The notes: a model not told the origin generated them from the letters alone. Positions 341 to 14,920 are shown, counted from the stretch's first letter. The stretch: DNA of 40,049 nucleotides from a virus (IMGVR_UViG_3300008255_000230:1-40049); one strand, 5' to 3'. Program-made: numbers and translations.

Positions 341-354
341 CTTTCTCACACTCC

Positions 355-788: not shown

Positions 789-930
789 CTTTCTCCTTAA
801 GTTTCTTAAGAGCTAAGCTAACATCATAAGCGATGTCGCGGCCAAGATAACCAAGTCCGACACTCTTTAGTATTTGTTCACAGCTGAAGCGTACCTGATC
901 CTCGACCATTTGAAGTTCTTCACTGGTCAT
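625..930 (-). CDS. hypothetical protein
   Basis: AGGAG RBS and start coupled to the upstream gene. The C-terminal half overlaps 567..788 in another frame. Confidence 0.5.
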   Translation of the reverse strand: MTSEELQMVEDQVRFSCEQILKSVGLGYLGRDIAYDVSLALKKLKEKDDGPKRNADTNLGDVGRGTNSEDSRDQKIPQGQPNLQGKEKIHYPKGKDKESSK

Positions 931-1478: not shown

Positions 1479-1798
1479 TTAATGTTGCCAGTATATAGTA
1501 CAGATGGATTACTACGCAGTATGTAGTTTAGTATATCTGCGTAGCCACAAAGGTCAATTAGGTTGTCTTGACTGTGTACTGCTGTCTCCCTGCTTAACTT
1601 AACACACATCATGAATAAGGCACCTTCTGCGGCTGTTAAAGTGTGTCCTGAGACAATACGGAAGAGATCTACTGTACGTTGGAAGTCGTATTTTGGGTCT
1701 CCGTACACATCATGCCTGTCTTTTGTTATAAGCTTTTTAGCTTCTTCACAAATTCCACCTAGTTCCTCTATCATTTTCTTCTCCTTTTGGTTGTTCAC
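1475..1798 (-). CDS. DUF6378-like phage protein (putative nucleotide metabolism)
   Basis: Pattern EA..LI..DR..VYGDP...F...MMCVKLSR...DNLIDLCGYA is characteristic of this phage family. Confidence 0.75.
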   Translation of the reverse strand: MNNQKEKKMIEELGGICEEAKKLITKDRHDVYGDPKYDFQRTVDLFRIVSGHTLTAAEGALFMMCVKLSRETAVHSQDNLIDLCGYADILNYILRSNPSVLYTGNIK

Positions 1799-1822
1799 CT
1801 GAGAATTTCTCCTTTTGTTAAT

Positions 1823-2008
1823 TCAACGGGTAGCGCTAATTGACAGCTCAGAATCCCACTTGTAATACACGGTCATTTTTCGCCACGCCCACAGTGCATC
1901 TATCGCTATCCATGGAGAGAGCGCATAGGTTGTGTAGAACCCGTCCGTGGCCTCGTAAAGCCGCAGGCCGTTGTCACGGACACAGCGGACTTGAAGAACA
2001 GTAGTCAT
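1823..2008 (-). CDS. hypothetical protein
   Basis: Start moved to ATG 2008 (MTTVLQVRC) because AAAGGA lies upstream and the longer start falls inside a hairpin. Confidence 0.5.
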   Translation of the reverse strand: MTTVLQVRCVRDNGLRLYEATDGFYTTYALSPWIAIDALWAWRKMTVYYKWDSELSISATR

Positions 2009-2249
2009 GGCTCTTTGCAATCCTTTATGTCTCAATAACCCCCGCAACCGCAGCGCAGTTTTGTACTTAACGCTACAGCTGCGGGGTTGTTGCCCCAGTT
2101 ATTCGCGGTTATTTGTCTAATACAACCACTGGAGCAACATCCAGCCCCGGCATAATGGGCTAGGGCTGGTAAAAGCTTGTGCGGCGCGGGCAATCCGCTG
2201 TGCGCCGTTCATTTATCAACTAACGCTACAGCGTTCCGCGCCGCACAAA

Positions 2250-2288
2250 AACTTTCAACTGTCAGAACTTTCAACTGTCAGAACTTTC
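2250..2288. repeat. 16-bp tandem repeat (AACTTTCAACTGTCAG x2.4)
   Basis: Copies at 2250-2265 and 2266-2281, partial copy at 2282-2288. Confidence 0.9.
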
Positions 2289-2313
2289 GCCAAACCCAGA
2301 GAGTTCATGGATC

Positions 2314-2562
2314 TCACTCCAGCCTGTTTGCCAACTCTCCGGCGGCCCGTGTTGCGACTATGCGCCACTCGCGGAGCATCGGTATTCGGTACAAGTCGGG
2401 GAACATCTGCGCGTAGGCCAACGCTTCTTCGTAGCTCAAAAACACTATGCCTGTCTCCCAGCCATAGCCAACGCCCAATTGTAGTATGTACACAGGGGCC
2501 TCGTATCCACTGGATTTCTGCCGTTCAGCCAGCGTCGGGATTGTGACTGACATTTTCACCAT
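2314..2562 (-). CDS. hypothetical protein
   Basis: 82 aa ORF coupled to the small upstream ORF. Confidence 0.55.
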   Translation of the reverse strand: MVKMSVTIPTLAERQKSSGYEAPVYILQLGVGYGWETGIVFLSYEEALAYAQMFPDLYRIPMLREWRIVATRAAGELANRLE

Positions 2563-2657
2563 AACTCGTACCTGCCCTTTTTTATCTGTGTTACCTTTTT
2601 ACACCATTGATTTGTCGCATCCCATTGCTTGACGGAATCATAGTTGTAGTCGCTCAT
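2556..2657 (-). CDS. small hypothetical protein (33 aa)
   Basis: MSDYNYDSVKQWDATNQWCKKVTQIKKGRYELW; overlaps both neighbours at start and stop, GGAGG upstream. Below the ORF-track cutoff. Confidence 0.45.
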   Translation of the reverse strand: MSDYNYDSVKQWDATNQWCKKVTQIKKGRYELW

Positions 2658-2894
2658 TTCTTCCACCTCCATTGCTTGATCGTCGCACCATATTCCTTGG
2701 TCGGGAACGCTGAATCGAATACTATCAGCGCGTTCTCGCGGCTGTTACTGGACCGCGCTACGCTAGGTGCTGGCACAAACTGCACCCTGGGCGACAGACG
2801 CAGCCACGTCAATGTCGAAGCGAAATTCGTCGTTGAGCACAGCCCAGAACTCCGGCGGCGTACGCCATTCTTGGCGCGGGTCAATTATTTTCAT
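2654..2894 (-). pseudogene. internally deleted, frameshifted phage DNA N6-adenine methyltransferase (Dam-like)
   Basis: Frame A (2894-2763) MKIIDPRQEWRTPPEFWAVLNDEFRFDIDVAAS matches the phage Dam N-terminus (WxTP...F..D.AA). Frame B LSPRVQFVPAPSVARSSNSRENALIVF matches the C-terminus. The NPPY/F catalytic core is absent. Confidence 0.7.
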
Positions 2895-3054
2895 CTTCTC
2901 AATCCTCTTTTGCTATTTGCTAAAAGATGGCTGCTATAGCCTTACAACTTGGGATTATTTAACTATAGCAGCCACCGTCATCTGTGGTGGTGTAGGTAAC
3001 AGTGGCCACAGACAACACCCAGTGCTAACATAGCAGGTTAGTACTGGAAAAAGG

Positions 3055-3456
3055 TTACTTTGACTTGACCCAGCGCTTCACATCATTCTGCGTTCCGTAG
3101 ACATCATCTTCGGATTGGCTAAGAATGACCCACGCCGTCTTACCTTGGTAATCCTCAGCGTCGGAGATTGCACCGCTGATCCCGAGTGCTTCATGAGCTG
3201 TTTTAAGGCGACGAAGTTTGTTGTTCTTCTTCAACTCTTCATCTTCTGGCCGAGGATAATTGAGGAACGTAGTGAAGTTTTTCACATTGTCAAAGTTCTC
3301 ACCACTGGCAAGCTGTATGACTTTGCAAGTGAGGAGGACATAACGCCGTTCTTCATTGGGGACAGCGGAGAGTACTTCAATCTTCGCTTCCGTCGCGTTC
3401 TCCAGTGCGATTTGCTCCGGAATGTCATCGAGGTTCACATTGAGAAAGTCTTCCAT
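3055..3456 (-). CDS. putative single-stranded DNA-binding protein (DUF669-like)
   Basis: Beta-rich, C-terminal YG.QNDVKRW motif, located directly after an AAA_24 ATPase. Confidence 0.6.
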   Translation of the reverse strand: MEDFLNVNLDDIPEQIALENATEAKIEVLSAVPNEERRYVLLTCKVIQLASGENFDNVKNFTTFLNYPRPEDEELKKNNKLRRLKTAHEALGISGAISDAEDYQGKTAWVILSQSEDDVYGTQNDVKRWVKSK

Positions 3457-3477
3457 AATCAGTTCCCTTTTAGTCTT

Positions 3478-3512
3478 TGAGCTATGCTCAGTTTCGGTTC
3501 ATTATTTGAACC
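3478..3512. promoter_or_regulatory. double-palindrome element TGAGCTATGCTCA-N6-GTTCA-N5-TGAAC (copy 1)
   Basis: Intergenic; a second copy with identical spacing lies at 15585-15618. Confidence 0.6.
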
Positions 3513-3519
3513 AGTTGTC

Positions 3520-4326
3520 TCACACTTTATCATCTGCATTGAGCCCCGCCTTTTTTATGAGATACCTGATGTCTGGTTTCTCTTCACGTGAGAAAATACC
3601 AGATCCAATACGGGTAGCAGCTCTGTATTCGGAGAAGTTCTCGGTTATAAACACTCTTTCTGAGCCACTACTACTCTCTTTATTAATAAGAGTGTAGTAC
3701 TCCTGAAAGTGGACTGGTAATCTCTCACCTGATTGACCTGGCAACATCAGCTTTTTTATAATGTTGCCGAGAGCCTCATCTTTGTCCCTTTCAAGGTGTC
3801 CCAATATAAGAGTGTGACATGGGAGAGCACTGAGTGAGATTACAACATTGGTCATCTGATGGTACAAGGTCATCCAATCCTGAATCCGCATTCCTTGCCC
3901 TTCACCTGATTTAGAGCTCATATTGGAGGGGCTTCTACCTTCTTTGTGCATAATCTGACGGATTAGTGCATCGCAGAAGGTTGTAGTACTATCCAAGATG
4001 TACGTTCCAAGTGAATTGAAGAAGCCATTATTTCCGAGTTCATGATATTCTTTCTCCCATAAGCTGTAGGCGGTGGGATGAACTCGGTCATCTTCCTCAA
4101 ATCGGGTATCGACAAAGATTTTTCCCTCTTTAATCTCCTTTCGTAGTGTAACAGTTCCACCACTATCAAAGCTGTGGATGAGCACTGGTGCTGGACAGGT
4201 CTTAGCTAAAGAGGTCTTTCCAACACCTTTTTCACCAATAACACAGCCATGAAAGAAGTTAATGGTGGAACTTTCCTCCATTCGTTTCTTTATCTCGGCA
4301 AACTTAGTCTTGACATCAAAGGCCAT
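3520..4326 (-). CDS. AAA_24 / Sak4-like P-loop ATPase (phage recombination)
   Basis: Walker A GEKGVGKTS, Walker B YILDS, ILGH motif; sits between a nuclease and an SSB-like gene. Confidence 0.85.
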   Translation of the reverse strand: MAFDVKTKFAEIKKRMEESSTINFFHGCVIGEKGVGKTSLAKTCPAPVLIHSFDSGGTVTLRKEIKEGKIFVDTRFEEDDRVHPTAYSLWEKEYHELGNNGFFNSLGTYILDSTTTFCDALIRQIMHKEGRSPSNMSSKSGEGQGMRIQDWMTLYHQMTNVVISLSALPCHTLILGHLERDKDEALGNIIKKLMLPGQSGERLPVHFQEYYTLINKESSSGSERVFITENFSEYRAATRIGSGIFSREEKPDIRYLIKKAGLNADDKV

Positions 4327-4347
4327 TTTTTAGCTCCTAACAAGTTT

Positions 4348-5382
4348 TTACGTTGGAAATGGGAAGTCGGCACTACTCAACTCTTTCCTCTCAACAACCT
4401 CTGGCTCCACTCTCTCTTTGTTGAGAAGCATAGCTCCGTCTTTCAACAAGTATTTTGCCTCTTTATCATGTGAGCGGGGATTCCAGAAATTAGTGGTCAT
4501 CCCCAAAGGTGGGGAATCTGCACTTCTGAGAGGATTAACCCAAGCGGCGCACAAATCAAGGTATGGACATACACCATATTGAGTACATGAGTCAGTTCTT
4601 CGTGGAAAACTCTCTAGGATTTGGTCACCTTCTTTACATTCCATAAGCTGGTCGAAGTTCCAATCTAGTTCTTTCAAAATATATTGGATATCGAACAACC
4701 AGCTCAGTAGGTGCTCATCGTTCTTTTGGATTGGAAGTCTGATAAAGCCATTTCCAGTCTTTCTAAGCAAAATCCCATTTACTTTCATCCCAAAGACTGG
4801 CTCATTTGGAAAGATGCACTTAAGTGCATGAGTGTAAGCGGACATCTGAAGGGAGAGGTCAAACTGACGTCTCCATTGAGTACTGTCACGGCTAGATGTT
4901 TTGTGGTCTATGGAGAAGATTCCTTCGGCGCCACGACAGATTGTGTCCATCTTAAAATGGAGGAATTCATACTCACTTATTGGGACTGACCCAGCGACCT
5001 CTGTATAAAGAACTTCGAAGTTCTCAGAACCGTTGTAGTGCTCACAGTATTGTTCTAACGCCAGTGAGCCATTAGACAAGTTCTTTGGGGACCATTGACC
5101 CTCTTCCTCAATAGAAAAGTGTTTGAGATAATGGTTCTTGAAAGCGTCAATTGCTTGTCTCACACACTCTATTGGGTAGTGGGAGTTTGTTAGCCCTTCC
5201 ATCAGCTTTTCCATCCCCAGATGGATTGCCGTACCAAACTCAAGGTGAATATTAGGTTGGTCCGAGGTCCATCCGAGAATGTGGCGAAAGAAGAAGTAGC
5301 GCGGACATTTTTGGAAATCGTTCAGCTTACTAGAGTCCCTAACCATTACGGCGGGATCAAGCTTTAGTTGATGTCCATCCAT
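4348..5382 (-). CDS. PD-(D/E)XK exonuclease, Cas4/AddB-like with Fe-S staple
   Basis: N-terminal FQKCPRY, GTAIH, catalytic E...KMD...IDHKT, QMSAY, C-terminal CTQYGVCPYLDLC (1+3 Cys). Confidence 0.88.
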   Translation of the reverse strand: MDGHQLKLDPAVMVRDSSKLNDFQKCPRYFFFRHILGWTSDQPNIHLEFGTAIHLGMEKLMEGLTNSHYPIECVRQAIDAFKNHYLKHFSIEEEGQWSPKNLSNGSLALEQYCEHYNGSENFEVLYTEVAGSVPISEYEFLHFKMDTICRGAEGIFSIDHKTSSRDSTQWRRQFDLSLQMSAYTHALKCIFPNEPVFGMKVNGILLRKTGNGFIRLPIQKNDEHLLSWLFDIQYILKELDWNFDQLMECKEGDQILESFPRRTDSCTQYGVCPYLDLCAAWVNPLRSADSPPLGMTTNFWNPRSHDKEAKYLLKDGAMLLNKERVEPEVVERKELSSADFPFPT

Positions 5383-5473
5383 CTCATATATTCCTTTCTC
5401 TCAGTTCTTAACAACAAGAATCTGGGCAGGAGCCCAGCGGAGTTTGAAAACTGAACTCCTGCCCATTGCTCAG

Positions 5474-5556
5474 CTGGTTAGCTGTTCAGCGAATTAGCTG
5501 TTCAGCGAATAACTGGTTAGCTGTTCAGCGAATAACTGGTTAGCTGTTCAGCGAAT
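5474..5556. repeat. tandem repeat, core TTAGCTGTTCAGCGAAT x4 (period 23/16)
   Basis: Cores at 5478, 5494, 5517 and 5540; the last copy encodes the end and stop codon of 5540..5896. Confidence 0.92.
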
Positions 5557-5896
5557 CGAGGAAAGCCTGACGTTCTTCGTCCGTCATGCTGTTGAAGAGC
5601 TCCATAGCTTTGTCGGCCTTGTCCTTGCCCTTTACTTGACCTACGGATGGGACCCAATCTTCGAGAGCCAATAAAGCTTCCTCTGCGCTCTTCGGCTCTT
5701 TGCCATGAGTCAGGGAGAAGAGTTTGTTCCGCTTAGAGGTCTTTGCCCCGATTACGAAGTTGTAAAAGACGACATCCTCACCCCACTTCTGGAGTGCATC
5801 CTGCAAGTTGGAGCCAACATCATACGTGCACACGACGGTGCTTTCGTCAGCGTGCTTCACTGAGATTTTGCCAGAGCCGACGTTCTCATTAGACAT
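5540..5896 (-). CDS. hypothetical protein
   Basis: AAGGA RBS; 118 aa; C-terminal MTDEERQAFL helix. Confidence 0.75.
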   Translation of the reverse strand: MSNENVGSGKISVKHADESTVVCTYDVGSNLQDALQKWGEDVVFYNFVIGAKTSKRNKLFSLTHGKEPKSAEEALLALEDWVPSVGQVKGKDKADKAMELFNSMTDEERQAFLDSLNS

Positions 5897-6366
5897 AGTT
5901 CTTTTCCTTTAGTCGTTAGATGATTAAAATATCCGACATGGACATGTTCTGGAGGGCAGCCCATCTTTTTGGACCACCACTCTCTTTCAAGGTGATTCAT
6001 CAGCTGGGTGTTCAACTCAAAAGTTAGGTCACGACAAAACTCCTTTATGGTTACATTGGTGATTAGAGTACCGAAGTGGTGAAGTACATAAGGTGAAGGT
6101 AGGCCACCATCTTTGTTTCTCCCCACTTTTGGTTCAGTAATTGAACCTGACTGGAGAACCCAATAAGCTTTGGGGATATCAAGAAAGTTCTCATTATAGC
6201 TGTTAAGTAATTGTGACACCAAAGATGGGTCATACTTATCAGCTACTTTTAGAGACGGTATCTTTATTAGCTCATCTTTTTGGAAGATGAGAATTTGGAA
6301 AGATATAACCGTTCTCTTATCAGAACAAATCTTGTATTGGATACAAAGATTGTGTAGCTCCATCAT
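5857..6366 (-). CDS. hypothetical protein
   Basis: 169 aa ORF filling the operon gap. Confidence 0.6.
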   Translation of the reverse strand: MMELHNLCIQYKICSDKRTVISFQILIFQKDELIKIPSLKVADKYDPSLVSQLLNSYNENFLDIPKAYWVLQSGSITEPKVGRNKDGGLPSPYVLHHFGTLITNVTIKEFCRDLTFELNTQLMNHLEREWWSKKMGCPPEHVHVGYFNHLTTKGKELCLMRTSALAKSQ

Positions 6367-6396
6367 CTTTTAGTCCCTTACCGATCTTTTAGTCCC

Positions 6397-6768
6397 CTAT
6401 CGATCTTCCATCGCGTTCAGTGCCTCTTCCAATCTCTTGTTTAGATGTTTTATCTTGGTTACGGACTCAGGTAGTTCTAGCTCCCTACTAAGTGCCTCTT
6501 CCAAGCTGTGTCGACCACGACCACTTCTGTTACAATTACCATAGCCTAGTTTTACCATAACAGATAGGGCCTCATCAGTGAACTCTATCTCCTTAATAAG
6601 ATTGTTTGCCATTAAAACTCCTCGTAAGTCCTCACAGATTTGACGCCCCAGCTCACTTCTGGAATGAAGAGTTTGGTCTCTCTCCTTATAGAAGGTAGCT
6701 AACTCAGCTAGTGTTCGGATATCAACTCGACATTCAATCACCGCGGAGTTTCCTTTCTCTCTGCCCAT
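6397..6768 (-). CDS. hypothetical protein (possible DNA-binding regulator)
   Basis: First gene after the 6832-6860 promoter; AGGTGG RBS; beta-alpha-alpha-like N-terminus. Confidence 0.65.
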   Translation of the reverse strand: MGREKGNSAVIECRVDIRTLAELATFYKERDQTLHSRSELGRQICEDLRGVLMANNLIKEIEFTDEALSVMVKLGYGNCNRSGRGRHSLEEALSRELELPESVTKIKHLNKRLEEALNAMEDR

Positions 6769-6831
6769 TAAATCACCACCTTTGTGTTTGGAAATACGTC
6801 TTTTGGATTACCCCTTGTTAAGTCTAATGCC

Positions 6832-6860
6832 ATTATACGCTATTGCGGGCGAAAAGTCAA
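6832..6860 (-). promoter_or_regulatory. sigma70-type promoter
   Basis: Minus strand TTGACT-17 bp-TATAAT, about 60 bp upstream of 6768. Confidence 0.85.
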
Positions 6861-6900
6861 GATATTAATTTGTGCTATTCATCATCTCACACACTTATCA

Positions 6901-6959
6901 TATTTTTTCCACTAATAATCTTTTTTTCCACTAATCTTCTTTTTTCCACTAATAATCTT
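6901..6959. repeat. three imperfect copies of TTTTTTCCACTAAT(AAT)CT
   Basis: Read directly; A-tract repeats upstream of the 6860 promoter. Confidence 0.8.
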
Positions 6960-6977
6960 GGTTCATTACCCAAATTG

Positions 6978-7019
6978 GGTGGCGGATCCAAGCTTTCTTC
7001 AAAACTCAGATCCGCCACC
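6978..7019 (-). terminator. long GC-rich hairpin after 7038..7247 (terminator or processing site)
   Basis: GGTGGCGGATC/GATCCGCCACC, extended by G-U pairs on the minus strand; no clear U-tract. Confidence 0.45.
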
Positions 7020-7037
7020 AGAACTCAGATTCAGCCC

Positions 7038-7247
7038 CTACTCAGCTTCGACAGCCGACAGGTTGAAGAGGAGGACAATACGACTGGTGAACTTCAAGAT
7101 CTCTTCGTGAAGAGCTGTGGCATTCTCCTGATCTTTAATCCACTCCGAAAGCTTCTCAGAGTTCTCAATCTGGTCGATGGGGAGACTGATGGAGTAGCTA
7201 TCTGAGTAGCCAGTTGTCAAAGTGATGTTTGCCTTAAGCGTGTACAT
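7038..7247 (-). CDS. hypothetical protein
   Basis: Start reassigned to ATG 7247 (MYTLKAN) after AAAGGA. Confidence 0.6.
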   Translation of the reverse strand: MYTLKANITLTTGYSDSYSISLPIDQIENSEKLSEWIKDQENATALHEEILKFTSRIVLLFNLSAVEAE

Positions 7248-7284
7248 AGTTAATCCTTTTGTGCGAAGCACATTGGTTGTAATA

Positions 7285-7470
7285 CTACCGTTTGACGTAC
7301 GCGTTCAGTCCGAGTACAAGCTCATGACCTTCGACGATAACCCCAGTTGGGACGTTGCCGCCAGTTGAGGCCACTACCAAGCTCTTTCCGGTCTTGGAAG
7401 CTTTGAGGGGTTTGTTAATTGGAATTTCAATCACCAGTTTGTCCCCATCCATCTTAACTTTCATCTTCAT
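7285..7470 (-). CDS. small beta-rich hypothetical protein
   Basis: KLVIEIP...SKTGKSLVVASTGGN...LGLNAY; AAAGGAG RBS. Confidence 0.75.
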   Translation of the reverse strand: MKMKVKMDGDKLVIEIPINKPLKASKTGKSLVVASTGGNVPTGVIVEGHELVLGLNAYVKR

Positions 7471-7494
7471 CTCCTTTCGGCCTATGGCCGGTTG

Positions 7495-7869
7495 TTAGTT
7501 AGTTTTGATCTGGATATCCCGTTCGGCTGCGTTTTGCGCTTCCCTTGTTAGGCTCAACGCTCTTTCGATGTTCTTAGGGGAAAGGTCAAACTCTTCTTTG
7601 TTGATAACTCGGAGAATGTGCCACTTCCATATGAACCATTCAATACCCTCTTTGAGAAGTATATCCAAGAGGAAGATGTCATTCAACTCGTTTTGGAACT
7701 CCTTATCTACGAGGTGCCATAAGGAAGGTGGGCACAGAGAAATCTGTTCTCTCAACTCATTTGGTATGATATTGCTCAGTTGTAGTGACAAATCCTCCTT
7801 TCTATCCACCAATTTGTGGAGTTCCCTAATAGATTTGCAGAGGAAAACAGCTCTTTGAGATTTGATCAT
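7495..7869 (-). CDS. hypothetical protein
   Basis: 124 aa; GGAGG RBS; ATGA overlap with the upstream ORF. Confidence 0.65.
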   Translation of the reverse strand: MIKSQRAVFLCKSIRELHKLVDRKEDLSLQLSNIIPNELREQISLCPPSLWHLVDKEFQNELNDIFLLDILLKEGIEWFIWKWHILRVINKEEFDLSPKNIERALSLTREAQNAAERDIQIKTN

Positions 7870-8039
7870 TTGAAGAGAGCCTCCGCAAATTTCTCCAAGT
7901 CCACATGGGACATGGACTTAATATGGGATGTCCACCACGCCTCATTAGCTAATGACCAGGTTCCGCGCTCGTGAAAAAGTGCAATCAGCGATTTCAGAAC
8001 TGAGTTCTGCATCATTTTGATTTCCTCGATACTCTTCAT
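7866..8039 (-). CDS. hypothetical protein (57 aa)
   Basis: Manual translation MKSIEEIKMMQNSVLKSLIALFHERGTWSLANEAWW...EALFK; fills the gap exactly, GAGGG RBS. Confidence 0.6.
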   Translation of the reverse strand: MKSIEEIKMMQNSVLKSLIALFHERGTWSLANEAWWTSHIKSMSHVDLEKFAEALFK

Positions 8040-8417
8040 CTAAAATCCCTCCTCTTCAAAGTTCACGGTTATTTGGTTCAAACTGATCTTGGTTAGATTC
8101 AACCAATGTATCTCTTCCTGAGCTTCCTGAACTGGACAGTTCTCAGTGTGCTCCTCAATTGGAGCATCGCAGAACTTACAGTAAGTCCCCTCTTGCGTTT
8201 TGATAAACGTCTGGAGGAGCGATGTCATGATTGAGATATGCTCAGATATTAGTGTGTGGTCACTTAGGAGATAGCGTAAAGCTGAGTATTCTTCAACTCT
8301 GGCTGACAGCATACCTAAGTTTGCTTTTGTCTGGCCTGTGGGTCCAGCCCAGAATAGGGAACGGATATGCGGGCCAACCTTAGTTGAGCGCACCCTTAGC
8401 TCTGTCTTTCTTAACAT
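8040..8417 (-). CDS. hypothetical protein with putative Zn-binding motif
   Basis: CKFC...H...C; GAGGAG RBS. Confidence 0.65.
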   Translation of the reverse strand: MLRKTELRVRSTKVGPHIRSLFWAGPTGQTKANLGMLSARVEEYSALRYLLSDHTLISEHISIMTSLLQTFIKTQEGTYCKFCDAPIEEHTENCPVQEAQEEIHWLNLTKISLNQITVNFEEEGF

Positions 8418-8449
8418 CTTTGTTCTCCTCTTTGTTCTCCTTTTTCACT

Positions 8450-8641
8450 TCACTTTAGCTTGGTCACTCTACCTTTAGAGTCTGTCCAAGCTGTTAGACG
8501 CCAATCCCAGTTTGAGCTGGCAACAAAGAGTGGACCACCGATAACTCGATGGCCCACCTCATCTAAGATGTACAGGACAGCTCCAGCAGAATATGCCTTC
8601 TTTGCTTCATTAGAAGTTTTGAAGGTTCTACTAAGCTTCAT
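8450..8641 (-). CDS. hypothetical protein
   Basis: GAGGAG RBS, 63 aa. Confidence 0.65.
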   Translation of the reverse strand: MKLSRTFKTSNEAKKAYSAGAVLYILDEVGHRVIGGPLFVASSNWDWRLTAWTDSKGRVTKLK

Positions 8642-8843
8642 TAAGTCTCCTCACTGAGTGTGATTGTGCAAGCTTTTCTCTGAGAAACAAGACCATCTCT
8701 TTCATTGTAGATGTGTGATGACAAAAGAAGTCGTCTTTATCCAGTGTCCAGCCGTTCTCCTCTGGGAGAAGGGAGTACTCAGCTCCAGTTTTCTCGTTCA
8801 GCTTCATCATAAGCTGACAAGCTTGATTTAACCTTGAGCTCAT
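8631..8843 (-). CDS. hypothetical protein
   Basis: GGAG RBS, 70 aa, coupled to the next gene. Confidence 0.65.
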   Translation of the reverse strand: MSSRLNQACQLMMKLNEKTGAEYSLLPEENGWTLDKDDFFCHHTSTMKEMVLFLREKLAQSHSVRRLNEA

Positions 8844-8861
8844 GTTAGTTTCTCCATGTGT

Positions 8862-9275
8862 TTAGTCCCCAAAGATTTGGTCCTTCTCAAGATTGTGCAG
8901 GAAGAACTCTTGTTGTTCCGGACTCATTTGGTTAAATATATCACGGATTAGTTCTGTAGAAGATTTTTTCTTCCCTTTAACCTTCTTCCCCTCGACCACC
9001 GATTTGTTTGGATTCCACTTCTTTATGGGAGTCCTATAAGATCGGTTATCGAGATTGGTTACATTCAAGAGGGATTTGGGAACCACCTTCCCATCCGTAT
9101 CAAAGGTGTAGTGGCGCTCCTTACTGGGGTGAGAAAGCACTTTCTGCGCCATCCAATGAAGGGCGAATAAACGGATGTGAGTTTCTGAAAGAAGGGACCA
9201 ATCGAAGTTGATTGGCCCCCTTTTCTCATCTGTCACAGTTGCCGTCTTCTTGAGAACGTCAATTGTTAGATCCAT
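8862..9275 (-). CDS. hypothetical protein
   Basis: Start reassigned to ATG 9275 (MDLTIDV) after GGAG; Lys-rich linker and MSPEQQEFFL C-terminus. Confidence 0.7.
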   Translation of the reverse strand: MDLTIDVLKKTATVTDEKRGPINFDWSLLSETHIRLFALHWMAQKVLSHPSKERHYTFDTDGKVVPKSLLNVTNLDNRSYRTPIKKWNPNKSVVEGKKVKGKKKSSTELIRDIFNQMSPEQQEFFLHNLEKDQIFGD

Positions 9276-9576
9276 CTGTAAGATTCTCCAAAGAGTTAAA
9301 GAGTTCTTCGGAATCACTCATTAGATAGGCTGCTAATAGTGTGTTCATACACAGGTTGTCCATGAATTCATCTTGGTTCAATTGAGCTGCGATACATTTC
9401 TCACTTAGAGAGAGAGAAACCTTCTCTGAACCAAGCCGGAGGGTGAGCTCCCTACATTGGGCCATTACTATAAGAAATGCCGCTAAAAAGTCATCGCGTT
9501 TCCCGCTGTTGTTTGGGAGAATCTTCCGTGTTGTACGGATAAAAAGCTCTTCGTGTTTCGTCAGTTTGAGTTTCAT
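9259..9576 (-). CDS. hypothetical protein
   Basis: AAGGTG RBS, 105 aa. Confidence 0.65.
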   Translation of the reverse strand: MKLKLTKHEELFIRTTRKILPNNSGKRDDFLAAFLIVMAQCRELTLRLGSEKVSLSLSEKCIAAQLNQDEFMDNLCMNTLLAAYLMSDSEELFNSLENLTDGSNN

Positions 9577-9624
9577 GCTTCACCTTTCTGGGCGCAGCCC
9601 TTAGGCTGCGCCCAATTAGTTGAG

Positions 9625-9819
9625 TCAAAATGACTCTTTCCTATCCACATAGTTAGTTGGATACTTATCTGTCTGGTGATAGTGGTGATGAACTCGCCAA
9701 CCACACCGAATGAGTAGGTCGATCTCAGATGAAATCAGCCATTCCACATTGTCCTTATCCACCTTGTTTTTGAGGTGAATAGCTGTTTGGTTCTTGTAGT
9801 TGAGTAGATACCAGCTCAT
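9625..9819 (-). CDS. hypothetical protein
   Basis: 64 aa, ATGA overlap with the upstream gene. Confidence 0.6.
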   Translation of the reverse strand: MSWYLLNYKNQTAIHLKNKVDKDNVEWLISSEIDLLIRCGWRVHHHYHQTDKYPTNYVDRKESF

Positions 9820-10025
9820 TTTTCGTACTTCTCCAAGGTGCGAGTGATACGATCCATCTTCTTTTCCATTATTATCATCTCACGGTGGGCCGTCTCTTGA
9901 AATATGTTGGACAGCTCCTCTGGCACCGCTAATGAGAGGTTCTCAAGAACGTTGATGGCGCTCCCAATCTGTTTCAAAGATGGGCGTCTTCTCTTCTCAC
10001 GGTTGTTTAGCTCATAGATTGACAT
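9816..10025 (-). CDS. hypothetical protein
   Basis: AAGGAG RBS, 69 aa. Confidence 0.65.
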   Translation of the reverse strand: MSIYELNNREKRRRPSLKQIGSAINVLENLSLAVPEELSNIFQETAHREMIIMEKKMDRITRTLEKYEK

Positions 10026-10127
10026 TTTGCGACTCCTTCTTCTGGATTAATCCAGAATTGCAAGATGCCCAATGCATCTTAGGAGGGGCACCTTGAGAGG
10101 TGCCCTACCTGAGAGACACTAGACCTG

Positions 10128-10442
10128 TTATTTGGTCTCGCTTAAGATGGAGAGGAGCTCATCTGGGTCTTGGGCCAGCAATGTTGAGAGTGCCATAACA
10201 TCTATGGCCATTGCCCGAATAATGGCACCTCGATCACCTATGATGGTTTGAGCAGCTTTGGATACTACCTCAGCCATTAGAGCATTATACCCCTCTGATT
10301 GTATCTCTTTTTGTATGGTGGCAATAATCAGTGAGAGGCTAAAGCAAACACCTAGGTGAAAGTTCTCTTGATGTGAAAAGGCCTCATCAATGATGTCGGT
10401 TAAGATCTTCTTACCACCATTCATCTTCTTCTCCATCTTCAT
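10128..10442 (-). CDS. hypothetical protein
   Basis: Start reassigned to ATG 10442 (MKMEKK) after AAAGGAG; the longer start overlaps 10495..10962. Confidence 0.6.
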   Translation of the reverse strand: MKMEKKMNGGKKILTDIIDEAFSHQENFHLGVCFSLSLIIATIQKEIQSEGYNALMAEVVSKAAQTIIGDRGAIIRAMAIDVMALSTLLAQDPDELLSILSETK

Positions 10443-10494
10443 CTCCTTTTGCCAACCAAGTTGGCGTTCAAAAACTGAACAACGTCCGGTAATC

Positions 10495-10962
10495 TCAAAA
10501 GTAACGAGCGCGGCCCTGAAACTTGGTCTCAGCACTAGCTTTAGCCTGATAATCATGGGAGAGGACAATGAGCCCACGGGGCTGCTCATATTTGGTGTCG
10601 GTAACAACCTTCCAGAAGTACAAAATGACCTCATGCCCATAAAGGTCGCCACAGTACCGACCATCTGGTAAGTCATCAATAATTTCAGCTCTAACAAGAT
10701 CGGGGGAGCCAGAAAGATCGTTGTTGGCAATCCAGAAATCAACTACATCCACAGCTCTTCCATGAAAGTAGATGAAGGGCCATAAGAACTTTCTCTTAGG
10801 ACTAAATGGGGATTCTTCAACATCGGCTTCTGAGAAAAACTCGATTGGATTCTCCTCTGAGCCTTTTGGAAAGTCGTTTGGGTCTATCTCATGTTCGTTG
10901 TCACTACGACCTTCGACATAGTCGTAATCTTCTGGGCTGAAATTGTCTGGGTAGTTACTCAT
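10495..10962 (-). CDS. hypothetical acidic protein
   Basis: AAGGAG RBS; acidic N-terminus MSNYPDNF. Confidence 0.7.
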   Translation of the reverse strand: MSNYPDNFSPEDYDYVEGRSDNEHEIDPNDFPKGSEENPIEFFSEADVEESPFSPKRKFLWPFIYFHGRAVDVVDFWIANNDLSGSPDLVRAEIIDDLPDGRYCGDLYGHEVILYFWKVVTDTKYEQPRGLIVLSHDYQAKASAETKFQGRARYF

Positions 10963-11161
10963 CTTCTTTCTCCTTAACGTTAGCGGAGCTGACTGGTCTT
11001 AGGGCCATCTCAAGACCTAGGTGGAGTGTCCCATCTAAGAGAGCATCCTGGAAGATTCTGCGGGCATTATCTAAGGGGTATGACTCTGATGGATAGCAGC
11101 GCGTCCATCTTTTTTCCCCCCTAACTCTTTTGAACAATCCATACCTTCTGATACTTCTCAT
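10955..11161 (-). CDS. hypothetical protein, first gene of the leftward early arm
   Basis: AAGGAG RBS; 68 aa; bracketed by 43-bp direct repeats. Confidence 0.7.
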   Translation of the reverse strand: MRSIRRYGLFKRVRGEKRWTRCYPSESYPLDNARRIFQDALLDGTLHLGLEMALRPVSSANVKEKEDE

Positions 11162-11199
11162 CTTCTTTCTCCTTAACGTCAGCGTAGCTGACAGTTCTT
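10958..11199. repeat. 43-bp direct repeat pair (10958-11000 and 11157-11199)
   Basis: 39/43 identical; each copy contains hairpin, RBS and ATG. Confidence 0.9.
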
Positions 11200-11299
11200 T
11201 TGAGCTTACCTCATCAGTGTCAGTTGCTCAACCTGACAGACAGCCCCCAGCTGTGCAAAGCACAGCTGAGGGGGCTGTTTCGGCAATTCGGCGCAGCCG

Positions 11300-11579
11300 A
11301 CCAGCTTAGTAATCTTCTCAATCTTTGGGTCAAGCCCAAAGCACTTGGTTGGTGAGAAATTCTTAGTAGCTGCGATCATCTAGTCACAAGACCCATATTT
11401 TCTCAGTTGCTCATCTCGTTGGTGTTACGAACCTGAGATGAGCCAGAAAAATGGGATAGAGGACAGCAGATTGTAAGAACCTTCCAACTGGGTATCTCAC
11501 TACAAAGTGGGGAGTCGCGGGCCGTTGGAGGGCCGACGAACTTGGGACAGTGAGAAGATTGCTATTGGTAATAGCTGGT
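11300..11579. ncRNA. candidate structured non-coding element (multi-stem, about 280 nt)
   Basis: Closing helix 11307-11320/11551-11564 plus 11300-11306/11573-11579 encloses three internal hairpins; no credible ORF. Family not recognised. Confidence 0.4.
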
Positions 11580-11901
11580 TAGACTAATTATGGTGCGAAG
11601 CACCAAAATGGGGGGAGGGACTGAGCTTAGTTATCATCCAAAACCTGGAAAGTGGAACTTTTAGATGAACGCCCATAAACCATTCATCTAGCTCATGTCA
11701 GCGGGGCCGACCAATTATTAGAATCTCAGAAGCTTGTCTCAATTACTAATTGAGAGGGGCTTTGCTAAGGTTAGCGTTAGTACCACCTCAACGCCGGTGT
11801 CTTTGAGCTTAGCTCAGAAGTTCACCTTGTGCCTTACCACATTTTGGGGGTGGTAGATCCCAGATGGAATCCGCCCCCAACCATTAAACTTTTACTATCC
11901 C

Positions 11902-11930
11902 ATTATAGCATAATAAGGGCCAGATGTCAA
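11902..11930 (-). promoter_or_regulatory. consensus sigma70 promoter driving the leftward arm
   Basis: Minus strand TTGACA-17 bp-TATAAT with extended -10 TG and an A-tract upstream. Confidence 0.9.
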
Positions 11931-11946
11931 GTACTTTTTTCAAGGT

Positions 11947-12235
11947 GATTGGTCGTAGACTGATTGGTCGTAGACCAATCTGGTTGGTCGTAGACCAATT
12001 GGGGGGTGTGAAATCAGATTGGAGGGTGTGGGATCAGGCTGGGAGCCTGCGCTCCAAGTTGTGGACTAACTCCCATCTCCGTTCAGTAAATGAACGGAGG
12101 TTGGGATACGCCCAACAAGGTTGGGATACGCCCAACGCGGTCGTAGACCGATCCGTTGGTGCCTAGCACCTTTTCGGCTACGCCGAAGATCGGTGTAGCC
12201 GAACATTCGGAGTAGCCGAACAGCTGAAACGCTGA
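11947..12235. repeat. cluster of short palindromes / mini-hairpins, partly tandem
   Basis: GGTCGTAGAC x4, GTTGGGATACGCCCAAC x2, three TCGG-N5-CCGA hairpins (loops CTACG, TGTAG, AGTAG), GGTGCCTAGCACC. Confidence 0.85.
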
Positions 12236-12281
12236 CATTAAGAGGAGAGTAGCATTAGTTTGTGCTAACATAGGGAACTAG

Positions 12282-12556
12282 TACTATGGGCGTATGGGCA
12301 CTCGTATACTAGGGCCCCCCTAGGGTTGGGAGGGGCATCCCGCCCATCTGGGTATGGCTAACCAACTGGGTATGGCTAACCAACTGGGTATGGCTAACCA
12401 TGGGAGTAGCACAAACCAGCTCAAAAATTTTTTTCATAGAGATTTTTTTTCTCTATATGTGTATATATAAAGATGTCCCCACAGGGGGCCAGATGTGTCC
12501 CCGTACGGCCAATGGGGGGGGGACCCTAGTATACAGACGCCCATATGCCCACAGTA
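12282..12556. repeat. 39-bp imperfect inverted repeat around an AT-rich core
   Basis: 12282-12320 versus the reverse complement of 12518-12556, 32/39 identical. Confidence 0.85.
12348..12400. repeat. 18-bp tandem repeat CTGGGTATGGCTAACCAA x3
   Basis: Read directly. Confidence 0.92.
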
Positions 12557-12614
12557 GTATACAGAAAGTACAAAACTACACTAATACTAAATTGTGCTAT
12601 CACTAGACTCAATC

Positions 12615-12668
12615 AGTTAGCTACTAGTAGTTAGCTACTAGTAGTTAGCTACTAGTAGTTAGCTACTA
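12615..12668. repeat. 14-bp tandem repeat AGTTAGCTACTAGT x3.9
   Basis: Read directly. Confidence 0.92.
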
Positions 12669-12819
12669 AGAGAGCGCCTTGCGCAGATCTCCGTTCATTT
12701 ACTGAACAGGAGTGTTGGGTAACTACCAAGATGGCGCGAAGCGCCACCAAGCTTACACACACACACACATATGAGGTCAGCTCCGCTAATTTGGGAGTAC
12801 ACTATTCAGCTGGTGGTGG

Positions 12820-12876
12820 AGCTAACCATTTGAGTAGCTAAGCATTTGAGTAGCTAACCATTTGAGTAGCTAACCA
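12820..12876. repeat. 16-bp tandem repeat AGCTAACCATTTGAGT x3.5
   Basis: Read directly; one substitution in copy 2. Confidence 0.92.
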
Positions 12877-12879
12877 CTG

Positions 12880-12908
12880 TTGTCGGCTACGCCGATATGG
12901 AGTATAAT
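12880..12908 (+). promoter_or_regulatory. possible sigma70 promoter
   Basis: TTGTCG-17 bp-TATAAT; overlaps the hairpin TCGGC-TAC-GCCGA. Confidence 0.5.
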
Positions 12909-12965
12909 AGACAGATGGGCGCTTCCGCCCATGGGCGCTTCCGCCCGCATGGGCGAAAAATAGAT

Positions 12966-12994
12966 TTGACTTTAGCACTAAAATGTGCTAAACT
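12966..12994 (+). promoter_or_regulatory. sigma70 promoter with a palindromic operator in its spacer
   Basis: TTGACT-17 bp-TAAACT with extended TG; TTTAGCAC-N6-GTGCTAAA spans 12971-12992. Confidence 0.7.
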
Positions 12995-13052
12995 TCATGT
13001 GTCAATGGTTCACCAGACTGTCTGGAGGACCGAAAAAAAAGGAGTTTGGGAC

Positions 13053-13388
13053 ATGGCGAAGAACTCAAAGTCTGGGAAATGGTTGGGGACAGTCTACTCC
13101 TGTCCGACAAAATACGGAGTAAGGACGCTGGACCTGTCAAAATTGTCCGCGGAAGCGAAAAAGTATGTACTAGGTTTAGGGTGCGCATTCATACTACGCC
13201 AGTACAGTGCTGAGAAACCGGGACAGTTATATAATGGAGTGATTCGGACCTCTAAGACAGGTAAGTCTAAATCGGAAAAAATCACCGATTTGGCGAAGGG
13301 GATGCCAATTGCTGAAAAAGCCGCGCTTTTGGTAAATGGTATGACAGCAGCCGAAAAAGCAGTGCTCCTTGCTATGCTCGGGAAGTAG
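13053..13388 (+). CDS. hypothetical basic protein
   Basis: Start reassigned to ATG 13053 (MAKNSK) after AAAGGAG; the longer start runs through the promoter. Confidence 0.75.
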   Translation: MAKNSKSGKWLGTVYSCPTKYGVRTLDLSKLSAEAKKYVLGLGCAFILRQYSAEKPGQLYNGVIRTSKTGKSKSEKITDLAKGMPIAEKAALLVNGMTAAEKAVLLAMLGK

Positions 13389-13455
13389 TACACTAGCTAG
13401 GCAGGGAAGTTAGGTCAAATGGCCAACTTCCCTGCCTGAAAACGGGAGAGAAAAA

Positions 13456-13809
13456 ATGGTTTTTGAGAAGAATGATTTTAACTGGGACTACCTTCCACTA
13501 GTACAGCAGGTGATTAATACTTCTGTGCTGGAGGACATAGCAGACTCTACTATTTCGGAGATTGACTGCTGCCGTTCCCTTAGCGAACTTGAGATGTACG
13601 CGGTCGTTAGTAAACTGATTGAACTACTGGGATGGAGCAGAGGAATACCAGCTTACGAAGTCACTCGCGAAATGAGTAAGGAACTGGTACAGAATGGTTT
13701 CAGTATACCAGAAGAGTGGTACACCAATCTTCCGGTGGAGGCGCAGGAGAAGCGTAGGGAACTGCTCGACGAGTGCAAAAGGCGGAGTGAAGAGGAGGAC
13801 TTTAGATAA
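13456..13809 (+). CDS. hypothetical acidic protein
   Basis: GGGAG RBS; followed by a terminator. Confidence 0.75.
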   Translation: MVFEKNDFNWDYLPLVQQVINTSVLEDIADSTISEIDCCRSLSELEMYAVVSKLIELLGWSRGIPAYEVTREMSKELVQNGFSIPEEWYTNLPVEAQEKRRELLDECKRRSEEEDFR

Positions 13810-13848: not shown

Positions 13849-14048
13849 ATGCCTATGGTGTACTAATGTGATGGTACACTACACAGCTACTACCCCCCCT
13901 AAGGGGGGATACTAGCACACCAATACATACGTAACATCCCATCTAGTGCTTAACAAATATATTTTAATAGCACTTCTTTGTGCTTTTGTGCTACACACAA
14001 ATTTGTGCTTTTGTGCGGCGCAAGCTCTGCTCGGCTTCCGGAGAGACT

Positions 14049-14170
14049 GTGAGAAGATGAGAGGTGAGAAGATGAGAGGTGAGAAACGCAGCGCTTGCGC
14101 TGTCCTCCTGAACGCAGCGCTTTTGTGTGGTACTAAGAGGTGAGAAGGTGAGAAGATGAGAGGTGAGAAG
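14049..14170. repeat. purine-rich GGTGAGAAGATGAGA repeats in two blocks
   Basis: 15-bp unit repeated, interrupted by two AACGCAGCGCTT copies. Confidence 0.8.
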
Positions 14171-14311
14171 AAAAAGAAGAGATTGAACGAATCAGCGCGG
14201 GGCCGCTGCGCCCTTCTTCTATATACTATATACAGGAGCGCTTACCTCCAGTTGGGAGTAGCACAAGATTGAATAACTCCCCCACAGACTACAATCGCAG
14301 TTCGAAATAAC

Positions 14312-14365: not shown

Positions 14366-14920
14366 ATGTCTCCACAAATGTTTTCTTCACTAAAATCCTT
14401 TGATAGACGCCATCCGAGTGGGGATGGAAGAAGGAAGTATCAGCTCAAAGAACTTCGGTCGCGCCACCAAGAGATTTTGAGGAGAAACTTGGAGGGCCAA
14501 TCCAATGAGCGAATTGCCCAAGACCTTTCCATTACTCCTGTTGCTGTCTCCTACACACTGAACTCCGATATCGGAAGGGAGAAGATAGAAGAGCTCCAGG
14601 TAATAGGAGATTTGGATACAGCCTCAGTTATTAGAGAAATCCATGATCTTATTCCCCATGCGCTCCAGGTTCACGGAGATATTGTTAAGGATGAGAATAT
14701 GGATCCTCGAATCCGTCAGAAGTCCGCAGACAGTATTTTGGACCGCGGTGGCTTTGGTCGTGTAACCAGAGTTGAGGCGCACATGAAACATGAGAAAGAC
14801 GTTCAGAGGGGGAAAGAGGAAATTCGGAAGAGGGCAGTTGAGCTTGGTCTAATCAAACCAGTTATTGAGTGCTCAAGTAATGAGCTATGCACAACACAGT
14901 TGGAGATTAAAGATGAATAG
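14366..14920 (+). CDS. putative terminase small subunit (HTH)
   Basis: HTH GQSNERIAQDLSITPVAVS and IRQKSADSILDRGG motif; first gene of the packaging arm. Confidence 0.65.
   Translation: MSPQMFSSLKSFDRRHPSGDGRRKYQLKELRSRHQEILRRNLEGQSNERIAQDLSITPVAVSYTLNSDIGREKIEELQVIGDLDTASVIREIHDLIPHALQVHGDIVKDENMDPRIRQKSADSILDRGGFGRVTRVEAHMKHEKDVQRGKEEIRKRAVELGLIKPVIECSSNELCTTQLEIKDE

What the first reader, a model, noticed from the sequence alone, without database searches (positions are those of the whole stretch)
7260..12895. Family of C-GNA-G triloop mini-hairpins with covarying stems, mostly on the template strand
Seen, plus strand: TGTGC-GAA-GCACA (7260), GGGC-GCA-GCCC (9590), GTTAGC-GGA-GCTGAC (10979), GTCAGC-GTA-GCTGAC (11178), TCGGC-GCA-GCCGA (11288), TGGTGC-GAA-GCACCA (11591), GATTGGTC-GTA-GACCAATC (11962), TTGGTC-GTA-GACCAA (11984), CGGTC-GTA-GACCG (12138), TGGCGC-GAA-GCGCCA (12732). 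Minus strand equivalents lie at 9604, 12173, 12776 and 12883. Stems change sequence but stay paired while the C-GNA-G loop is kept, which points to structure rather than a dsDNA binding site. Established: d(GC-GNA-GC) forms exceptionally stable DNA hairpins, and phage N4 virion RNA polymerase promoters are template-strand hairpins of this type. At 9590 and 7260 a template C lies 11 nt from the loop centre, as at N4 start sites; at 10979 and 11178 the spacing does not fit. Inference: an ssDNA or cruciform hairpin code read by a phage protein (polymerase, primase, SSB or nuclease). No RNA polymerase gene is visible here, and consensus sigma70 promoters argue against full dependence on such a system.
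Basis: partly seen in the sequence, partly recalled or inferred. Interest (0 to 1): 0.8.

Follow-up and report, generated by a model that had tools for sequence, protein, structure and literature searches.

The report
DNA mini-hairpins at phage genome ends
An uncultured phage carries 15 tiny DNA hairpins with an extra-stable loop type, mostly packed around what is likely its terminal repeat; they fail the N4 promoter rules and likely arise where the genome ends turn single-stranded and fold back on themselves.

Summary
The hairpins are real: 10 perfect stems of 5 bp or more in 1-13,500 against 0.25 in shuffles; the late arm is not enriched. The window is a PaP2/Desulfofustis-MD01-like podophage with sigma70 promoters. 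Contig depth doubles at 12,371-12,644, a likely direct terminal repeat, and 11 of 15 hairpins lie within 1.2 kb of it, among tandem arrays and other palindromes. The N4-promoter reading is not supported: 2 of 15 meet N4's three base contacts, and no T7/N4-type RNA polymerase was found here (genome incomplete) or in 12 near-complete relatives. Dense clusters with other stems recur in 2 of 42 relatives on separate branches; 23 of 42 have none. T7, T3 and phiKMV carry one such hairpin in their terminal repeats. Best reading (0.45): fold-back and slippage products of single-stranded genome ends, perhaps kept as nuclease-resistant caps; one test for template switching was negative. Main rival (0.25): priming or end-processing signals; 12 relatives showed no Toprim or Prim-Pol primase. 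Separately, a genome-wide palindrome looks like the loading site of the family's ParB-HTH-methyltransferase. The scan noted that system, and GNA hairpin repeats, before on other DNA.

The parts
7260..7272 (+). TGTGC-GAA-GCACA (family A), between two early genes, next to a Shine-Dalgarno complement
9589..9615 (.). two C-GCA-G hairpins (9590 plus, 9601 minus) that are the arms of one 11-12 bp palindrome with a 4-nt loop, just upstream of an RBS
10958..11000 (+). 43-nt duplicated RBS-plus-hairpin unit, copy 1 (GTTAGC-GGA-GCTGAC, one G.T)
11157..11199 (+). copy 2 of the 43-nt unit (GTCAGC-GTA-GCTGAC)
11248..11268 (+). 9-bp stem with a C-AAA-G triloop inside a longer palindrome
11288..11300 (+). 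TCGGC-GCA-GCCGA (family B)
11591..11605 (+). TGGTGC-GAA-GCACCA (family A)
11902..11930 (-). sigma70 consensus promoter, 12 of 12 with TG, facing the early arm
   Evidence: pattern match only
11946..11999 (+). three tandem GGTC-GTA-GAC copies (family D), upstream of the -35 box
12081..12095 (.). GTTC-N7-GAAC palindrome, candidate ParB-HTH site; a separate element from the hairpins
12138..12150 (+). CGGTC-GTA-GACCG (family D)
12173..12203 (-). TTCGGC-GTA-GCCGAA nested in a 14-bp palindrome, about 170-200 bp left of the likely repeat
12344..12400 (.). 18-nt tandem array; one more copy in another assembly of this phage
12371..12644 (.). likely direct terminal repeat: contig depth 18.8 against 9.1 and 10.6 on its flanks; AT-rich core; imperfect inverted repeat at about 12,280-12,320 and 12,515-12,560; ends approximate
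   Evidence: inference
12612..12668 (.). 14-nt tandem array with four GTAGCTAAC copies on the minus strand
12693..12707 (.). second GTTC-N7-GAAC palindrome, just right of the repeat
12732..12746 (+). TGGCGC-GAA-GCGCCA (family A, compensatory change against 11591)
12777..12789 (-). TTAGC-GGA-GCTGA, the only copy that resembles an N4 promoter
12818..12876 (+). 16-nt tandem array of G(G/T)AGCTAA half-elements without a 5' arm
12883..12895 (-). TCGGC-GTA-GCCGA, inside a 10-of-12 sigma70-like site at 12880-12908
3520..5382 (-). Sak4-like annealing ATPase and PD-(D/E)XK nuclease, candidate makers of single-stranded ends
   Evidence: role inferred
14366..14920 (+). small terminase (weak PHROG hits, HTH), 1.7 kb right of the likely repeat

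Best explanation
The 15 hairpins sit mostly on both sides of a likely direct terminal repeat and are likely by-products of single-stranded genome ends that fold back at the most stable loop, would be filled in by the polymerase and then copied by slippage. Shown: the cluster, its place beside a depth-doubled segment, its mix with tandem arrays and other palindromes, and its patchy spread in relatives. Inferred: the phage nuclease and Sak4 expose single-stranded tails each cycle; a 2-bp C-GNA-G fold-back primes a few bases of synthesis and leaves a perfect inverted repeat; local duplication spreads four stem families in both orientations, some into the gaps between early genes. Weak selection for nuclease-resistant, SSB-poor caps may keep them, but no dedicated reader protein is needed.
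For: Position: depth 18.8 at 12,371-12,644 against 9.1 and 10.6; Kuura has a 606-bp repeat just upstream of TerS and PaP2's record starts 2.3 kb before TerS beside an AT run; Shea is terminally redundant (PMC13348215, whole text). General palindrome field: non-GNA palindromes exceed shuffles in 34 of 35 regions, most in the GNA-rich genomes (window 6.2x, L152 5.2x, L054 9.6x; rho 0.49, p 0.003, not corrected for kinship); 3-nt loops 161 against 34, loops of 4-8 nt 2.1-2.6x. The window and L152 hold the most tandem duplication. Turnover: clusters lie on three separate TerL branches whose neighbours have 0-2 (quick tree); of 3 sub-terminal hairpins alignable between G011 and G012, none keeps its loop and two differ by 3-4 bases in one arm. 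Nested palindromes in the window. C-GNA-G hairpins in the first 800 bp of 5 of 11 known terminal-repeat podophages, 0.74 expected. Stability and nuclease resistance of GC-GNA-GC: PMC13037366 (passages and section 4).
Against: A direct test found no excess of substitution clusters in palindrome arms between close strains: 4 of 441 clusters against 6 in shifted controls (mostly coding DNA). GNA density and tandem duplication are not significantly correlated over 35 regions (rho 0.26, p 0.14); L054 has little duplication and L248 much duplication with no GNA hairpin. T7 and T3 keep a C-GAA-G hairpin at a like place with a compensatory change, and phiKMV has one at 76, which looks like selection. 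Four hairpin sites sit right before ribosome sites up to 5 kb from the repeat. The terminal repeat rests on contig depth in one run, probably the source sample; other runs were too shallow.
Confidence: 0.45

Rival explanations
1. Functional single-strand signals for priming or end processing. The family has PolA and an MCM-like helicase but no recognisable primase, so hairpins beside the repeat would stay free of SSB and recruit a host primase or primosome, or be nicked to prime duplication of the repeat.
For: G002's annotated 'primase' models as an MCM-like AAA+ helicase; Toprim_2 and Prim-Pol 0 of 12 relatives while controls ring 14 of 14 and 3 of 14. Mini-hairpins occur at the G4 origin and at ssiA, and bind SSB poorly (PMC13037366 section 4). 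Family-wide excess upstream of TerS: 39 against 4.15. T7/T3 compensatory pair. A 14-bp palindrome lies 170-200 bp left of the repeat, like the T7 M-hairpin (recalled, no paper found).
Against: 23 of 42 relatives have no such hairpin in the stretch held (1.2-7 kb, some short); no fixed distance to TerS or its promoter; strand polarity differs between window, L152 and L054; loops not kept between G011 and G012. A divergent primase may be missed; the RepB-primase search had no ringing control.
Confidence: 0.25
2. Pairs of double-stranded half-sites (iteron or terminase-site type). The unit is the octamer GNAGCYRA, and hairpins are head-to-head copies.
For: 16 copies in 10.9-12.95 kb against 0.8 per kb elsewhere, 10 of them without a 5' arm; T7 has CCTAAAG-type arrays at its repeat; L152 and L054 also repeat their own half-sites.
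Against: Families A and D do not share the octamer; the same loop class recurs with unrelated stems in other lineages; most armless copies come from two tandem arrays.
Confidence: 0.12
3. RNA hairpins that tune early mRNAs (stability or ribosome access), with the GNA loop incidental on the other strand.
For: 7260, 9589, 10979 and 11178 lie within a few bases of ribosome sites; 9589-9614 folds at -28.6 kcal/mol as RNA with its flanks.
Against: The mRNA loops would be C-UNC-G triloops; cUUCGg is rare (2 against 0.5); several copies lie upstream of the early promoter; of the 15, only 7260 and 11178 were listed as terminator-like, both on the non-coding strand.
Confidence: 0.08
4. Selfish REP-like palindromes copied by a host HUH enzyme or by gene conversion.
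For: Same stems at dispersed sites in both orientations; a 5-bp direct repeat flanks 12732 (sequence); earlier scan notes describe such elements in other phages.
Against: No common tag or length, no HUH gene among the window's proteins, no spread into the late arm.
Confidence: 0.06
5. N4-type template-strand promoters for a virion RNA polymerase in the missing part of the genome.
For: Same loop class; in the window the GNA strand is mostly the template; 12777 reads much like N4 P2; the genome is 84% complete and the big protein is cut at 1,378 aa.
Against: 13 of 15 fail the three base contacts; no PF00940 in 12 relatives or the window (T7 and N4 ring); N4 mini-vRNAP finds nothing, best E 0.39; big proteins are zincin/LPD38-type without RNAP motifs; strong sigma70 sites exist.
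Confidence: 0.04

Closest known systems
Phage N4 virion RNA polymerase early promoters (PMC4496689, passages read)
   Same: C-GNA-G triloop on a 5-7 bp stem, near a genome end, in the window mostly on the template strand
   Different: 13 of 15 miss the -11 purine, -8G or +1C; no AAAA ruler except 12777; no virion RNAP found; 15 copies, both strands
Mini-hairpins at single-strand origins: G4/St-1/alpha3 hairpin I and plasmid ssiA (PMC13037366, section 4 read)
   Same: extra-stable GNA/GNNA-type loops in a replication-related non-coding region
   Different: those are single conserved sites with a known primase; here many, lineage-specific, with no primase identified
T7/T3/phiKMV terminal repeats with short-repeat arrays (sequence checked; M-hairpin model recalled)
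   Same: direct terminal repeat with flanking short-repeat arrays and a C-GAA-G hairpin
   Different: one hairpin inside the repeat at a like position; here none inside the likely repeat, 11 in its flanks; no T7-type RNAP
REP-type and other small palindromic repeats (recalled; earlier scan notes)
   Same: short palindromes with GNA loops copied to intergenic sites
   Different: no shared tag, no HUH gene seen, confined to the end region and early arm
PaP2/119X-like phages (Jamesmcgillvirus, Fredfastierviridae) and Desulfofustis phage MD01
   Same: gene order exo-Sak4-(ParB)-PolA-helicase facing TerS-TerL-portal-capsid; capsid 42% to MD01, 23% to PaP2
   Different: neither PaP2 nor MD01 has a GNA cluster; genus or family membership not tested

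Membership tests
N4 vRNAP hairpin promoter | C:G closing pair with 5'G..A3' loop on a 5-7 bp stem | tested here: met
N4 vRNAP hairpin promoter | -11 purine, -8G and +1C together | tested here: not met
   2 of 15; N4's own 2 of 2 pass; rules from PMC4496689
N4 vRNAP hairpin promoter | A-run between stem and start | tested here: not met
   3 or more A in 1 of 15
N4 vRNAP hairpin promoter | cognate virion RNA polymerase encoded | tested here: not met
   0 of 12 relatives and 0 in the window with ringing controls; window genome 84% complete
N4 vRNAP hairpin promoter | rifampicin-resistant starts 11 nt from the loop; supercoil-driven extrusion | not testable with these tools
   no RNA run listed
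Single-strand initiation signal (G4 ori, ssiA) | stable mini-hairpin in an origin-like region | tested here: inconclusive
   AT-rich core with inverted repeats at 12.3-12.6 kb; origin not mapped
Single-strand initiation signal (G4 ori, ssiA) | conserved position and strand among relatives | tested here: not met
Single-strand initiation signal (G4 ori, ssiA) | primer synthesis at the site | not testable with these tools
   needs biochemistry
T7-type direct terminal repeat region | segment present twice per genome | tested here: inconclusive
   depth doubling in one run's contigs; no raw reads; cultured relatives have repeats there
T7-type direct terminal repeat region | short-repeat arrays flanking the repeat | tested here: met
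   18-, 14- and 16-nt arrays; T7 arrays seen
REP/RAYT repeats | conserved tag 5' of the palindrome and a cognate HUH transposase | tested here: not met
   GTAG/GGAG lies in the loop, not as a 5' tag (sequence); no HUH hit among 56 window ORFs; host genome unknown; tag rule recalled

The most novel reading that the evidence does not exclude
A widespread podophage family with PolA and an MCM-like helicase but no primase uses extra-stable GNA mini-hairpins beside its terminal repeat as loop-read, stem-free signals to prime replication or duplicate the repeat, and the C-GAA-G hairpin in the T7, T3 and phiKMV repeats is the same unrecognised signal, testable at once in T7.
Probability: 0.22. Interest if true: 0.75.

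Novelty: new variant of a known kind. Interest (0 to 1): 0.42.

Why it matters
How terminal-repeat podophages regenerate their ends is only partly understood, and how this family primes replication is unknown (own knowledge). If the hairpins are signals, T7's own repeat hairpin makes the idea testable in a laboratory phage. If they are by-products, they mark where phage ends go single-stranded and warn against reading every GNA hairpin as an N4-type promoter. The side finding, lineage-specific palindromes spaced along genomes that encode a ParB-HTH-methyltransferase, offers a candidate DNA target for a fusion class that PMC12704722 (passages read) lists as common in phages and of unclear role.

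Tried and rejected
No RNA holder listed. Runs X5-X8 too shallow to test the repeat. No contig found for the missing part of this genome. An exact search for one hairpin gave 24 viral stretches, one of them this phage; the others were used only as a control set and not studied. A TerS alignment was too variable for a collection scan, so TerS loci came from TerL flanks. L152, L140, L145 and L143 are not held as whole records. Template-switch test in close strains: no excess. No fixed hairpin-promoter distance. ParB-site flanks (AC-RNA-G) do not explain the hairpins: 9 of 30 outside L152 have A next to the closing C, by my count. An HTH tree against palindrome motif was unresolved and the window's ParB is cut before the HTH. 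The careful TerL tree did not finish; the quick tree was used, 4 of 43 rows left out. A first palindrome count double-counted nested stems and was redone. Big-protein searches gave zincin-type and LPD38 relatives only; it was not folded. Literature: 'GNA triloop'+hairpin+phage 0 papers; 'concatemer junction'+hairpin+'terminal repeat'+'phage T7' 0; 'mini-hairpin'+'terminal repeat'+bacteriophage 0; older subscription papers on T7 ends are not in the library. PMC11685472 (ops-type non-template hairpins; passages) was considered and set aside because the GNA strand is mostly the template here.
Full report
Observation. The listed hairpins are in the sequence; with one weaker extra copy there are 15 between 7,260 and 12,895. 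Perfect stems of 5 bp or more closing C-GNA-G number 10 in 1-13,500 (shuffle mean 0.245, maximum 2 of 200) and 1 in the late arm (0.435 expected). Because a search for stems yields 'covariation' by construction, I asked how often the bare heptamer GC-GNA-GC extends: 11 of 11 in 7-13 kb, 0 of 9 elsewhere. The copies are not independent. They form about four stem families; 9590 and 9601 are arms of one palindrome; 12173 is nested in a 14-bp one; five lie in local duplications. Two compensatory changes are clear (11591 against 12732; 11178 against 11288).

Setting. The window is a podophage. The minus-strand early arm has ParB-N, a Sak4-like ATPase and a PD-(D/E)XK nuclease; the plus-strand late arm has TerS, amidase, TerL, portal, capsid and a large protein cut at the contig end. 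The nearest named phage is Desulfofustis phage MD01 (capsid 42%), then PaP2-like phages. The marker-gene order is shared by the relative records wherever they are long enough to show it (21 records). Sigma70 consensus sites lie at 11,930 (12 of 12), 6,860 and 14,312 (11 of 12). In run X1, probably the source sample, the contig 12,371-12,644 has depth 18.8 between contigs of 9.1 and 10.6, as a direct terminal repeat would give. It has an AT-rich core and is bounded by 18- and 14-nt arrays. Kuura has a 606-bp repeat just upstream of TerS, PaP2's record starts 2.3 kb before TerS beside an AT run, and Shea is reported terminally redundant (PMC13348215, whole text). The repeat remains an inference from contig depth in one run. 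Eleven of the 15 hairpins lie within 1.2 kb of it and none inside.

N4 test. By the rules in PMC4496689 (passages), 5 of 15 have a -11 purine, 11 a -8G, 8 a +1C, 2 all three, and only 12777 also an A-run. N4's two hairpins in its first 3 kb pass everything. The '+1 C' at 7260 and 9590 belongs to the Shine-Dalgarno complement. PF00940 rings in T7 and N4 but not in the window or 12 relatives at 93-100% completeness; N4 mini-vRNAP finds nothing in the window, the 21 records or five named relatives (best E 0.39). The large proteins carry HExxH or LPD38 features and no RNAP motif. The window's own genome is 84% complete, so absence there is not shown.

Relatives. Of 88 loci with TerS, 66 had at least 1.2 kb upstream and 43 remained after dereplication. 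In the 42 other than the window, C-GNA-G stems number 39 against 4.15, C-AAA-G 15 against 1.25, other triloops 340 against 198. Two have dense clusters with their own stems: L152 (9, TCTGAC-GNA-GTCAGA type) and L054 (7, GCAACC-GNA-GGTTGC type); 23 have none. The three rich genomes fall on separate TerL branches and their neighbours have 0-2 (quick tree, 39 of 43 rows). Downstream of TerL there is no excess (9 against 12.8). Against a family-specific claim: non-coding DNA of 37 dereplicated random viral loci (of 75) and 20 prokaryote pieces also shows a small excess (2 against 0.7; 2 against 0.4), though never more than 2 per 2 kb, against 9, 9 and 6 here. Without L152 and L054 the family has 10 against 0.4 in 46.6 kb of non-coding DNA, about twice the control density. 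Strand and distance to TerS are not fixed.

Known phage ends. T7's repeat holds GTCAACC-TTC-GGTTGAC (C-GAA-G on the other strand) among CCTAAAG-type repeats. In the first 800 bp of 11 terminal-repeat podophages chosen from memory (T7 prompted the test), 5 have a C-GNA-G stem of 4 bp or more, against 0.74 expected; other triloops 51 against 37.9. T7 and T3 differ by a compensatory change at a like place; K11, K1F, VP4, LUZ24, phiEco32 and BA14 have none. Vibrio phage VS-ABTNL-3, a cultured relative, has five such stems within 4 kb of its record ends.

Mechanism. The region is a general palindrome field. Non-GNA palindromes exceed shuffles in 34 of 35 regions, most where GNA hairpins are many (rho 0.49, p 0.003, kinship not corrected), and 3-nt loops are favoured (161 against 34; other loops 2.1-2.6x); cUUCGg is rare, GNRA-type loops 33 against 12.5. 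GC-GNA-GC is stable with two pairs and resists nucleases (PMC13037366, passages and section 4); that C-AAA-G is also stable is recalled. I infer that ends made single-stranded by resection and Sak4 annealing (the T7 parallel is recalled) fold back at such loops, are extended by a few bases, and are then multiplied by slippage. G011 and G012, with near-identical TerL, fit this: of three alignable hairpins none keeps its loop, two differ by 3-4 bases in one arm, one shows a compensatory change with a new loop. A wider test was negative: 4 of 441 substitution clusters fell in a palindrome arm, against 6 in controls, in mostly coding DNA. Tandem duplication is high in the window and L152 but not correlated overall. 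Hence 0.45.

Rivals. The signal model (0.25) gains from the lack of a primase: G002's 'primase' models as an MCM-like AAA+ domain (pLDDT 77; best Foldseek hits all MCM, E 1e-9) and Toprim_2 and Prim-Pol are absent from 12 of 12 relatives with ringing controls. It loses on patchy presence. The half-site model (0.12) rests on 16 GNAGCYRA copies, 10 without an arm. RNA (0.08), selfish repeats (0.06) and N4-type promoters (0.04) follow.

Second element. A separate palindrome, GTTC-N7-GAAC, occurs 10 times across the window (0.78 expected), 0.6-7.6 kb apart, two copies flanking the likely repeat. By my reading, 18 of 20 records of 29 kb or more (window, MD01, 18 environmental) have their own fixed-arm palindrome spread the same way; G008 and G014 are unclear; PaP2, Kuura, VS-ABTNL-3 and Mel-JY34 show none. 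A stricter pattern gave 4 hits in 1.44 Mb of controls. The family encodes ParB-N, HTH and N6/N4 methyltransferase in one protein; PaP2 and Kuura have no hit to it, the other two only a partial one. These are likely its loading sites (inferred). An earlier scan note proposed the same for another genome; I had noted it before that look-up.

Novelty and verdict. GNA mini-hairpins at phage promoters and origins are known. Dense, lineage-specific clusters at terminal repeats, and the hairpin in T7-type repeats, were not found in three searches of a library that lacks most older T7 papers; no supplements were read. Earlier scan notes report GNA hairpin repeats in other genomes. Verdict: real, a new variant of a known kind, probably not a promoter code; interest 0.42, up to 0.75 if the signal model holds.

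Noticed in passing
window 3497, 6132, 10466, 12081, 12693, 13574, 15604, 21973, 29549, 35267; relatives G002-G021 and MD01: Genome-wide fixed-arm palindrome (GTTC-N7-GAAC here; other arms in other lineages; about 7 kb spacing in MD01) in phages encoding a ParB-HTH-methyltransferase fusion: candidate parS-like loading sites.
   Followed up: partly
L165:8427-9620 (G002) and 21 homologues: The protein annotated 'DNA primase' in this family models as an MCM-like AAA+ helicase with no primase domain; no Toprim or Prim-Pol in 12 relatives.
   Followed up: partly
T7 66-82 (L392), T3 79-93 (L382), phiKMV 76-88 (L386), VS-ABTNL-3 8-20 (L245): C-GAA-G hairpin on the minus strand near the left end; compensatory change between T7 and T3; identical stem in phiKMV and VS-ABTNL-3.
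   Followed up: partly
window 12971-12992: 8-bp inverted repeat with a 6-nt spacer over a sigma70-like site at 12966-12994; operator-like.
   Followed up: no
window 5462-5560, 6899-6965, 2261-2290, 8408-8456, 14040-14171: Further short tandem duplications in intergenic gaps, away from the terminal region.
   Followed up: no
window 35916-40049: Large ejection-type protein with two HExxH motifs (residues about 800 and 1000); one zincin-like segment is missing from the G002 homologue.
   Followed up: partly
L005:11779-14256 (MD01): Family A DNA polymerase with an N-terminal uracil-DNA-glycosylase-like domain.
   Followed up: no
window 12425-12470 and 12514-12522; PaP2, Kuura, MD01, L152, L054, G011: An AT-rich run, often with a nearby G run, recurs about 1-3 kb upstream of TerS; G007, G011, G012 and G015 contigs break beside it.
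   Followed up: partly
L371:3790-3890 (G039): A bacterial REP-like palindrome built with GC-GAA-GC mini-hairpins turned up in the control set.
   Followed up: no
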